IMG/VR virus record: IMGVR_UViG_2563366998_000006
Reading direction: 5' to 3' (one strand)
Source: a virus
Taxonomy: Duplodnaviria; Heunggongvirae; Uroviricota; Caudoviricetes
Length of the DNA stretch: 41,043 nucleotides
A model generated the notes under the pieces. The model ran no database searches. It was not told the DNA's origin and saw nothing but the letters and a program-made list of their open reading frames with translations. Numbering within the stretch: the first letter of the stretch is position 1; every line of letters starts with the position of its first letter. A program made the position numbers and the translations under genes. Of the stretch, positions 18,678 through 19,237 are shown in pieces.

Positions 18678-18819
18678 AACGCCCCAGCCAGTCATTCCCG
18701 ACCCGCTGACCTATGGGGCCAGTCTGGATCTGAATGTGAGCCTGCTTTCGGCGCTGGGCCAGTGCAACATCGACAAGGCCAGTATCAGGAAGATAGAAAC
18801 GTCACGCAACTCACAGTAG
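18562..18819 (+). CDS. Rz1-like outer-membrane lipoprotein spanin (overlapped, not fully embedded)
   Basis: +1 frame within and beyond Rz; MMIVLQVMCLLPLLTGC has a lipobox; Pro-rich mature region; start could also be the ATG at 18565 or 18583. Confidence 0.5.
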   Translation: MMIVLQVMCLLPLLTGCGSTRTVYVPVPAVPLPTSLTTETPQPVIPDPLTYGASLDLNVSLLSALGQCNIDKASIRKIETSRNSQ

Positions 18820-18858
18820 CCATTACAAAGCTCATCTGCGGGTGGGCTTTGTAATGGC
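18819..18858. terminator. Stem-loop between convergent genes (13-bp perfect stem), possible bidirectional terminator
   Basis: GCCATTACAAAGC (18819-18831) and GCTTTGTAATGGC (18846-18858) with a 14-nt loop, starting at the Rz1 stop codon. Confidence 0.4.
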
Positions 18859-19164
18859 TTATTCGTAGTTGTCACCAGGGAAGTATTCCTGAAACTTTGA
18901 TTTTGGGAGCTGGGTTTTCGCGAAGTTCGCAAGCCTTCCTCTTGTAAGCATGTAGTCACACCCACCTTCTTGTTTGAGAAGGTCACCAGCTAATGTCCGA
19001 TACACAACGTCACTTCGCAAAATTTCAATGGTGGAATTCCTGATGAGAAATGTTTCACACATCGGGCATCTAATTAACCAAGCGGTATCACGGTTCTGCC
19101 AGGTCGCATCTGAATTGCAAGCCGGGCAGCATTTCTGATCTTCTTGTCCTATGACCATTGTCAT
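18859..19164 (-). CDS. Hypothetical zinc-ribbon protein on the opposite strand
   Basis: 101-aa ORF with CPACN...CPMC motif; sits between the lysis cassette and the HNH gene; true start may be the second ATG at 19158 (GAGAG RBS). Confidence 0.45.
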   Translation of the reverse strand: MTMVIGQEDQKCCPACNSDATWQNRDTAWLIRCPMCETFLIRNSTIEILRSDVVYRTLAGDLLKQEGGCDYMLTRGRLANFAKTQLPKSKFQEYFPGDNYE

Positions 19165-19237
19165 GCTCTCGCATAGTGAAGGAATTTTCAGATTAACTCA
19201 TTTTCAGACGCATCGTAATGGCTTAAGGAAACAATTA

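What the first reader, a model, noticed from the sequence alone, without database searches (positions are those of the whole stretch)
18859..19164. Opposite-strand zinc-ribbon gene between the lysis and packaging modules
A 101-aa ORF with CPACN...CPMC motifs is transcribed against the late operon in the post-lysis slot where lambdoid phages often carry lysogen-expressed cargo (bor/lom-type). It is bounded by a convergent hairpin. Function is unknown; small zinc-ribbon proteins in this position may be regulators or anti-defence factors.
Basis: partly seen in the sequence, partly recalled or inferred. Interest (0 to 1): 0.4.

Follow-up and report, generated by a model that had tools for sequence, protein, structure and literature searches.

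The report
Hidden zinc-ribbon cargo gene in prophage
A small, previously uncharacterised zinc-binding protein gene sits backwards between the lysis and DNA-packaging genes of an E. coli prophage; it is a real, conserved, self-contained cargo gene that standard RefSeq annotation misses, and its function is still unknown.

Summary
ORF 18859..19164 (-) exists with CPAC/CPMC motifs and ends at a strong hairpin. All homologues start two codons later (ATG 19158, 99 aa).

- **Real gene:** homologues of 91-41% identity keep the frame, dN/dS is 0.07-0.13, and the four Cys are invariant.
- **Missed by annotation:** PGAP leaves it unannotated in all 32 RefSeq E. coli genomes that carry it.
- **Portable cassette:** about 415 bp (72-nt conserved leader, ORF, hairpin with compensatory changes) with sharp borders. 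It lies opposite the late operon at the lysis/packaging junction of several unrelated packaging modules.
- **Cargo hot spot:** in the same prophage backbone this slot is empty or holds a GrlR-family regulator, an S1 peptidase or another ORF.
- **The protein:** a Cys4 zinc ribbon plus a helical domain, mostly acidic, with no catalytic motif.
- **Nearest family:** Lar/RalR zinc ribbon is the most consistent Pfam hit (13/13 members), but always below threshold.
- **No other match:** nothing in PDB or BFVD folds, NCBIfam or PADLOC; only four relatives among 1.84 billion representatives; none in 50,697 GenBank phages.

My best reading is a moron encoding a small non-enzymatic binding protein, with anti-restriction or anti-defence as the leading guess. 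Expression and function are untested. Interest is modest.

The parts
18859..19158 (-). Coding sequence of the 99-aa zinc-ribbon protein (stop codon 18859-18861; likely start ATG 19156-19158).
   Evidence: ORF list. All homologues begin MVIG. dN/dS is 0.07-0.13 with 3rd-position excess. C11, C14, C31 and C34 are invariant in 13 sequences.
19159..19230 (-). Conserved 72-nt leader and candidate promoter region of the cassette. It holds a -35-like TTACGA (19213-19218), a 17-nt spacer, a -10-like TAATCT (19190-19195) and an SD-like GAGAG (19166-19170).
   Evidence: Identity among four cassettes is 69-80%, against 18-43% just outside, and is higher than at synonymous sites of the ORF. The hexamers match only 6 of 12 consensus positions and the promoter scan found nothing, so the promoter is inferred, not shown.
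18818..18859 (.). Hairpin between the convergent stop codons of Rz1/lysC (18817-18819) and the zinc-ribbon gene (18859-18861). It is terminator-like but has no canonical T-tract.
   Evidence: Inverted repeat of 17-nt arms. Folding gives z -7.95 (+ strand) and -5.3 (- strand). RNAalifold on 8 loci predicts 13 pairs, 6 with compensatory changes. The same hairpin occurs in HK022, mEpX2 and mEp235 without this gene. There is no Rfam family and it was not called by the terminator scan.
18846..18861 (+). Left copy of a 16-nt direct repeat (GCTTTGTAATGGCTTA). It is the 3' arm of the hairpin and includes the stop codon of the gene.
   Evidence: the repeat finder family D2. The exact 11-mer GTAATGGCTTA occurs only at these two places in the 41-kb window.
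19210..19225 (+). Right copy of the direct repeat (GCATCGTAATGGCTTA, 14/16 identical), at the outer edge of the conserved leader. It overlaps the -35-like hexamer.
   Evidence: An equivalent AAGCCATTA-type motif lies upstream of the cassette in L003, L006, L007, L018 and L028.

Best explanation
This is a genuine, self-contained accessory gene (a 'moron') of about 415 bp: a conserved leader, a 99-codon ORF and a 3' hairpin. It has moved among lambdoid prophages of Enterobacterales and always lies at the lysis/packaging module junction, reading against the late operon. It should therefore be transcribed independently of Q-dependent late transcription, in the lysogen and/or right after infection. 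The product has an N-terminal Cys4 zinc ribbon (CPxC-x16-CxxC, with an invariant S-x-A-T-W-x-N face between the knuckles) and a roughly 55-residue helical domain. It has no catalytic motif and is mostly acidic to neutral. I infer that it works by binding rather than by catalysis. The most likely role is a small modulator or inhibitor of a host or competitor protein, with a Lar-like anti-restriction or anti-defence role as the leading specific guess. What is shown: the gene is real, it is under purifying selection, it is a cassette, the slot is variable, and the zinc-ribbon architecture holds. What is inferred: own promoter, timing of expression, binding mode and target. Confidence is about 0.9 for 'real moron gene', about 0.45 for 'non-enzymatic protein-binding modulator', and about 0.15-0.2 for anti-restriction specifically. 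The single figure given (0.5) is for the whole statement.
For: Real gene: homologues at 91, 87, 81 and 61% identity and at 53-41% in viral contigs, all in frame. dN/dS is 0.07-0.13 with Fisher p 1e-7 to 1e-12. The exact protein is seen on at least 1000 contigs from E. coli, Salmonella and Shigella.

Cassette: homology covers 72 nt upstream, the ORF and the 40-nt hairpin, then drops to background. GC is 0.44-0.48 against 0.52-0.59 in the flanks.

Position: it is opposite-strand between lysis and terS in L003, L006, L018, L021, L027 and L028, which have different terminase types.

Slot variability in the same backbone: empty, a GrlR-family regulator, an S1 peptidase or a 144-aa ORF.

Architecture: four invariant Cys. 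The AF2 model has pLDDT 80.7 with 4 strands and 4 helices.

Lar-type ribbon: it is the top or most consistent Pfam hit in 13/13 members, best E 1.1e-5. The top PHROG is a Lar-like restriction alleviation protein, E 0.026. hhalign against the RalR clade gives E 2e-4.

Binding rather than DNA-binding or catalysis: family pI is 4.9-7.6 and the ribbon domain pI is 4.2-6.5. No enzyme family is hit.
Confidence: 0.5

Rival explanations
1. It is a small DNA-binding (auto)regulator with a zinc ribbon plus an HTH-like helical domain, an architecture like IS1 InsA. It would recognise the AAGCCATTAC-type motifs that flank its own cassette. One copy overlaps the -35-like hexamer; the others form the palindromic hairpin. 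It would repress itself and perhaps block read-through between the lysis and packaging genes.
For: The C-terminal residues 45-97 align with a repeated module of P0009 (profile search E 3.5e-9; hhalign probability 85%, E 6e-6). That module has faint similarity to transposase-type HTH families (HTH_32 at 32.6 bits vs cutoff 33.7; HTH_Tnp_Tc3_2, HTH_32 and DUF2089-HTH; Mutator transposase). The AAGCCATTAC motif occurs three times around the cassette and recurs upstream and downstream in other loci. A GrlR-family regulator occupies the same slot in sister prophages.
Confidence: 0.2
2. It is a Lar/RalR-family member in the strict sense: either a restriction-alleviation protein acting on type I R-M enzymes, or a RalR-like DNase toxin of a type I toxin-antitoxin pair. 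In the toxin case, antisense late-operon read-through or the hairpin region would supply the antitoxin RNA.
For: Lar_restr_allev is the commonest Pfam hit in 13/13 members. There is a PHROG Lar-like hit. The spacing K-x-CPxC...C-x2-CE is shared with RalR. RalR is annotated as a toxin with an antisense sRNA antitoxin.
Against: Every hit is below the gathering threshold and confined to the ribbon. The conserved RWN(K/R)R tail of RalR is absent. An extra 55-residue domain is present. Net charge is opposite. NCBIfam anti_R_Lar is hit by only 1 of 7 members at E 0.046. The gene is maintained at 99.3-100% identity in the 32 complete E. coli genomes; one frameshifted copy (P0006) and a few truncated forms occur elsewhere, and no partner RNA gene is evident.
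Confidence: 0.15
3. The functional element is the transcript or the hairpin rather than the protein. An antisense transcription unit or terminator would insulate the packaging genes from leaky late transcription in the lysogen, and the ORF would be incidental.
For: The hairpin is more stable in the late-operon sense, at -31.9 kcal/mol with a U-rich tail. It is conserved with compensatory changes and exists without the gene in HK022-like phages. The orientation is always antisense to the late operon.
Against: Strong purifying selection acts on the amino-acid sequence (dN/dS about 0.1). The four Cys and about 20 other residues are invariant down to 41% identity. An incidental ORF would not show this.
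Confidence: 0.05
4. It is a spurious ORF: overprinted noise in an intergenic spacer, as PGAP's silence would suggest.
For: It is unannotated in 32/32 RefSeq genomes. There is no Pfam family above threshold and no consensus promoter.
Against: The frame is kept over 13 diverged sequences. Substitutions show 3rd-position excess and dN/dS of 0.07-0.13. The start and stop are conserved. The AF2 model is confident.
Confidence: 0.02

Closest known systems
Phage lambda bor and the 'moron' concept of HK97/HK022 genomics (own knowledge: Barondess & Beckwith; Juhala et al. 2000)
   Same: It is a single accessory gene just after the lysis genes, reading against the late operon. It is present in some and absent from other otherwise-similar phages, has lower GC than its flanks, and has its own 3' hairpin.
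   Different: The protein is unrelated. Bor is a secreted lipoprotein, whereas this is a cytoplasmic Cys4 zinc-ribbon protein. Lysogen expression and a working promoter are shown for bor but not here.
Lar / RalR of the Rac prophage (Pfam PF14354 Lar_restr_allev; NCBIfam TIGR03655)
   Same: It is a small prophage-encoded protein with an N-terminal K-x-CPxC ... CxxC-E zinc ribbon. This is the most consistent family hit (13/13 members).
   Different: All scores are below the gathering threshold. Only the ribbon aligns. The RWN(K/R)R tail is missing and an extra roughly 55-residue helical domain is present. It is acidic rather than basic, and it sits at the lysis/packaging junction rather than in the early recombination region.
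IS1 InsA (N-terminal zinc ribbon plus C-terminal HTH, 91 aa; own knowledge)
   Same: It has the same size and the same order of a Cys4 ribbon followed by a short helical module. The cassette is flanked by short repeats.
   Different: There is no significant sequence similarity (Zn_ribbon_InsA is hit by 1/13 members at E 0.068). No HTH family is hit, no transposase is nearby, and the resemblance is in architecture only.
Ogr/Delta zinc-finger late activators of P2/P4 (own knowledge)
   Same: They are small Cys4 phage proteins that act by binding (to RNA polymerase) rather than by catalysis.
   Different: There is no Pfam Ogr_Delta hit. The Cys spacing differs (x16 here, against about x22 and CxxxxC). 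The genomic position differs, and the host phage is not P2-like.

Membership tests
Moron (autonomous accessory cassette of lambdoid phages) | Present in some and absent from other closely related genomes at the same site | tested here: met
   The same Rz1...HNH backbone has an empty slot (26 bp, L029), or a GrlR-family gene (L030), an S1 peptidase (L031) or a 144-aa ORF (L032). The zinc-ribbon gene is in 32 of about 1300 genomes with this backbone.
Moron (autonomous accessory cassette of lambdoid phages) | Sharp borders; the unit is found in different genomic backgrounds | tested here: met
   Identity is 69-90% over the leader, ORF and hairpin and 18-43% beyond. It lies next to P27-type terS plus HNH in the window, and next to phrog_1206 or phrog_51 terS types elsewhere.
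Moron (autonomous accessory cassette of lambdoid phages) | Own promoter | tested here: inconclusive
   The consensus scan finds none. The conserved 72-nt leader has TTACGA-17-TAATCT, which matches 6/12 positions.
Moron (autonomous accessory cassette of lambdoid phages) | Own terminator | tested here: inconclusive
   The conserved hairpin has 6 of 13 covarying pairs and z -5.3 in the gene's sense. It has no T-tract, was not called by the scan, and is shared with the convergent late operon.
Moron (autonomous accessory cassette of lambdoid phages) | Expressed from the prophage independently of late genes | not testable with these tools
   This needs RNA-seq or a reporter assay in a lysogen.
Lar_restr_allev (PF14354) / Lar family | Score at or above Pfam gathering threshold (28.6 bits) | tested here: not met
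   13/13 members hit, but the best E is 1.1e-5 and the window protein scores 17.6 bits. NCBIfam anti_R_Lar is hit by 1/7 at E 0.046.
Lar_restr_allev (PF14354) / Lar family | Profile-profile homology over the whole Lar domain, including the C-terminal RWN(K/R)R segment | tested here: not met
   hhalign against a RalR-clade alignment gives probability 46% and E 2e-4 over 32 columns, all in the ribbon. The RWN(K/R)R segment has no counterpart.
Lar_restr_allev (PF14354) / Lar family | Alleviates type I restriction (or has RalR-type DNase toxicity) | not testable with these tools
   A plating or toxicity assay is required.
Cys4 zinc ribbon | Two CxxC-type knuckles, invariant, on beta-hairpins | tested here: met
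   C11, C14, C31 and C34 are invariant in 13 sequences; the second knuckle is CxxC or CxxxC. AF2 places strands 6-10, 17-22, 26-30 and 36-40 around them. Only zinc-ribbon families are hit. Metal binding itself is not testable here.
Helix-turn-helix DNA-binding domain (C-terminal half) | Significant match to an HTH family or fold | tested here: inconclusive

The most novel reading that the evidence does not exclude
The cassette could be more than passive cargo. It may be a tiny self-recognising unit whose zinc-ribbon plus HTH-like protein binds the AAGCCATTAC repeats and palindrome that bound it. That binding could control its own expression, insulate the packaging genes from the lysis genes, or promote its own movement between module junctions. 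Alternatively it could found a new class of anti-restriction or anti-defence protein, placed about 0.5 kb from the cos end that enters the cell first (by analogy with lambda; own knowledge), so that it is among the first genes available for transcription on infection.
Probability: 0.12. Interest if true: 0.65.

Novelty: new member of a known kind. Interest (0 to 1): 0.35.

Why it matters
Three points make it worth recording.

- **Annotation gap.** A conserved protein-coding gene, found on at least 1000 public contigs from E. coli, Salmonella and Shigella, is left out of RefSeq annotation in every complete E. coli genome that carries it. Pangenome and prophage-cargo surveys built on those annotations do not see it.
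- **A cargo hot spot.** The analysis pins down a cargo insertion site (Rz1 stop to HNH or terS start) in a prophage backbone found in about a quarter of complete E. coli genomes. The site carries regulators and a protease in sister prophages. It is a good place to look for lysogenic-conversion or anti-defence genes.
- **An orphan family.** The protein family is very small (4 relatives among 1.84 billion representatives) and has no structural neighbour. Any phenotype would define a new family.

If the protein proves to be an ordinary accessory of no measurable effect, the finding is only a routine moron.

Tried and rejected
- **Family libraries.** NCBIfam, PADLOC (only a faint LmuB stretch), and PDB sequence profiles gave nothing usable.
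- **Rfam.** Nothing on the whole window at gathering scores and only chance-level miRNA-like hits on the hairpin. Known RNA families are rejected.
- **GenBank phages.** tblastn of three diverse family members found no match.
- **Genome-contig scan.** The single pattern used was too strict and confirmed nothing.
- **Precise empty site.** A synthetic junction joined at the 16-nt repeat matched only occupied sites. Excision by repeat recombination is therefore unsupported. The 'empty' backbone (L029) has diverged flanks, so the insertion point cannot be mapped to the base.
- **Literature.** Two full-text searches gave nothing on this gene.
- **Link to the HNH/terminase machinery.** I considered and rejected it, because the neighbour differs in every backbone.
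- **Spurious ORF.** Rejected on the substitution pattern.
- **65-aa zinc-ribbon ORF at 17006..17203.** It is not a paralogue. It is the N-terminal stub of an IS5-disrupted gene.

Full report
**Setting.** The window is a prophage integrated next to ybhC. It is 99.99% identical to one in E. coli CFSAN061770, apart from an IS5 insertion. It has lambdoid early genes, a Q antiterminator, HK97-type head genes and Mu/SfV-type tail genes. The late operon runs on the + strand:
- holin, 17495-17821
- endolysin, 17825-18301
- Rz, 18285-18677, and the overlapping Rz1/lysC, 18496-18819
- HNH endonuclease, annotated start 19238
- P27-family small terminase, large terminase, portal

**Observation.** The 101-codon ORF 18859..19164 (-) with CPACN and CPMC is there. 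It fills most of the 418-bp gap between the lysC stop and the HNH start. The gap is lower in GC (0.44-0.48) than its flanks (0.52-0.59). A 17-nt-arm inverted repeat at 18818-18859 touches both convergent stop codons. It folds far better than shuffles: -31.9 kcal/mol, z -7.95 on the + strand, and -23.0 kcal/mol, z -5.3 on the - strand.

**Is it a gene?** PGAP annotates nothing here in any of the 32 complete E. coli genomes that carry the sequence at 99.3-100% identity. GenBank submitters call it 'hypothetical protein', and the exact protein is on at least 1000 contigs from E. coli, Salmonella and Shigella. A search of 5.8 billion proteins found homologues of 91, 87, 81 and 61% identity, plus one frameshifted copy. 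IMG/VR contigs added relatives down to 41%.

All homologues are 96-104 aa and start MVIG. The true start is therefore most likely ATG 19158, giving 99 aa. The upstream ATG is peculiar to the E. coli allele.

Codon-aligned comparisons show the substitution pattern of a translated gene. Differences by codon position are, for example, 8/5/27 and 16/10/36. dN/dS is 0.07-0.13, and synonymous excess has p of 1e-7 to 1e-12. Across 13 sequences, C11, C14, C31, C34 and about 20 other residues are invariant. The 'overprinted noise' reading is excluded.

**Anatomy of the unit.** Among four cassettes with unrelated surroundings, homology covers three parts:
- 72 nt upstream of the ATG, at 69-80% identity, which is higher than at synonymous sites of the ORF
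- the ORF itself
- a 40-nt hairpin

Beyond these, identity falls to 18-43%. RNAalifold on eight loci gives a 13-pair stem, with compensatory double changes at 6 pairs.

The hairpin has no T-tract and was not called as a terminator. The same hairpin follows + strand late genes in HK022, mEp235 and mEpX2, which lack the gene. It is best seen as a shared, two-way boundary element.

The leader has -35-like TTACGA, a 17-nt spacer, -10-like TAATCT and a GAGAG Shine-Dalgarno-like motif. The hexamers match only 6 of 12 consensus positions, and the promoter scan found none.

A 16-nt direct repeat brackets the cassette: GCTTTGTAATGGCTTA at 18846-18861 and GCATCGTAATGGCTTA at 19210-19225. Similar AAGCCATTA motifs recur at both ends of the cassette in other loci. 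I found no genome with the precise repeat-to-repeat deletion. The meaning of the repeat is unexplained.

**Position and mobility.** The gene always lies between the end of the lysis cluster and the packaging genes, on the opposite strand. Its 5' end faces the packaging module. This holds in L003/L004/L005, L006, L018, L021, L027 and L028.

The packaging modules differ between loci: phrog_1206 or phrog_51 small terminases, Mu-F/portal_3 heads, GIY-YIG or ParB-like inserts. In the window the facing gene is HNH.

In the window's own backbone, which occurs in about 1300 of 5426 complete E. coli genomes, the slot between Rz1 and HNH varies:
- empty, 26 bp (L029)
- a GrlR-family regulator with a canonical terminator (L030)
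- an S1 peptidase (L031)
- a 144-aa ORF (L032)
- this gene

This is the behaviour of a moron in a cargo hot spot.

**What the protein is.** AlphaFold2 (pLDDT 80.7) predicts four strands carrying the two Cys knuckles, followed by four helices. Zinc-ribbon families are the only domain hits. Lar_restr_allev is the most consistent: 13 of 13 members, best E 1.1e-5. Every score is below Pfam's 28.6-bit gathering threshold, and the alignments cover only profile positions 4-33 of 58.

The best PHROG is a Lar-like restriction alleviation protein, at E 0.026. A profile-profile comparison with the RalR (Lar) clade gives probability 46% and E 2e-4 over the ribbon only. I therefore do not file it as a Lar-family member.

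An exhaustive profile search of 1.84 billion representatives found only four proteins. One is an 869-aa repeat protein. Its repeats align with residues 45-97 (hhalign probability 85%) and have only faint transposase-type HTH similarity.

No fold neighbour was found, and NCBIfam and PADLOC gave nothing. The family is mostly acidic to neutral (pI 4.9-7.6) and the ribbon half more so. This argues against a classical DNA-binding protein and against a RalR-like basic nuclease. Three diverse members have no tblastn match in 50,697 GenBank phage genomes.

**Mechanism.**
- *Shown:* a selected protein-coding cassette with a Cys4 ribbon, mobile among lambdoid prophages, in a variable cargo slot, antisense to the late operon.
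- *Inferred:* it is transcribed from its own weak promoter, independently of Q.
- *Inferred:* its product acts by binding, not catalysis.
- *Leading guess:* it modulates a host or rival-element protein, with a Lar-like anti-restriction or anti-defence role as the most specific version.

The main rival is a zinc-ribbon plus HTH-like autoregulator that recognises the AAGCCATTAC motifs around the cassette. An RNA-only or insulator role and a spurious ORF are disfavoured by the substitution pattern.

**Verdict.** This is a new, uncharacterised member of a known kind of element (a moron). Interest is modest, raised a little by three things: it is consistently missing from RefSeq annotation, the family is very small, and it has no structural or functional neighbour.

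Noticed in passing
window about 15834-17023 (IS5); ORFs 15980..16996 (-), 17006..17203 (-), 14829..15542 (-): An IS5 copy interrupts the 'nucleoid-associated protein' gene that is intact in the otherwise 99.99% identical CFSAN061770 prophage. The 65-aa 'zinc-ribbon' ORF at 17006..17203 is the N-terminal stub of that gene. Its last seven codons (GKVRTSP) appear, from my recollection of the IS5 end sequence, to read into the IS5 terminus. It is not a paralogue of the finding.
   Followed up: partly
window 13612..14826 (-) and 14829..17203 (-, split by IS5), between Q (ends about 13632) and holin (17495): A second opposite-strand cargo slot lies between the Q antiterminator and the holin. It holds a two-gene unit: a 404-aa hypothetical protein and a 391-aa nucleoid-associated-like protein with an N-terminal CxxC...CxxC motif. 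A sister prophage (L002) has three different hypothetical genes there. It could be a defence or exclusion system.
   Followed up: no
L029, L030, L031, L032 (E. coli prophages with the same Rz1...HNH backbone): The Rz1-to-HNH slot is a cargo hot spot. It is empty in L029 and holds a GrlR-family regulatory protein in L030, an S1 family peptidase in L031 and a 144-aa hypothetical protein in L032. All of these are on the late-operon strand, unlike the zinc-ribbon gene.
   Followed up: partly
window 18846-18861 and 19210-19225; also L030 about 1193-1204: A 16-nt direct repeat (14/16 identical) brackets the cassette and equals the 3' arm of the hairpin. The GrlR cassette in L030 has GCCATTACGATG in the opposite orientation just before HNH. 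This may be a recombination or boundary sequence at module junctions. No precise excision product was found.
   Followed up: partly
L009 (HK022) 1501-1542; L010 (mEpX2) 1501-1542: The same hairpin (about 93% identical) follows late-strand accessory genes in HK022, mEp235, mEpX2, HK446 and mEp506, which lack the zinc-ribbon gene. The hairpin is therefore a shared boundary element of lambdoid late regions, not private to the cassette.
   Followed up: partly
32 RefSeq E. coli chromosomes (e.g. NZ_CP023142.1 3423971-3424270): PGAP annotates no feature over this conserved ORF in any of the 32 complete genomes that carry it, although GenBank submitters' pipelines call it. This is a consistent RefSeq annotation gap.
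   Followed up: yes
P0009 (869 aa, metagenomic protein), residues about 190-690: This protein has eight tandem roughly 62-residue repeats (consensus ...ILKSNLxLxxIAExxTxETGIEVSxxKVxxxAKEKLxPEEYQKRFP). They are homologous to the C-terminal domain of the zinc-ribbon protein. The module is uncharacterised, with only faint HTH_32 similarity.
   Followed up: partly
window 18285..18677 (+) and 18496..18819 (+): The spanin pair is of the overlapped type: lysC/Rz1 starts inside Rz and runs 142 nt past its stop. PGAP flags the Rz (DUF2570) gene as incomplete in CFSAN061770, although the window has an intact 130-codon ORF.
   Followed up: no
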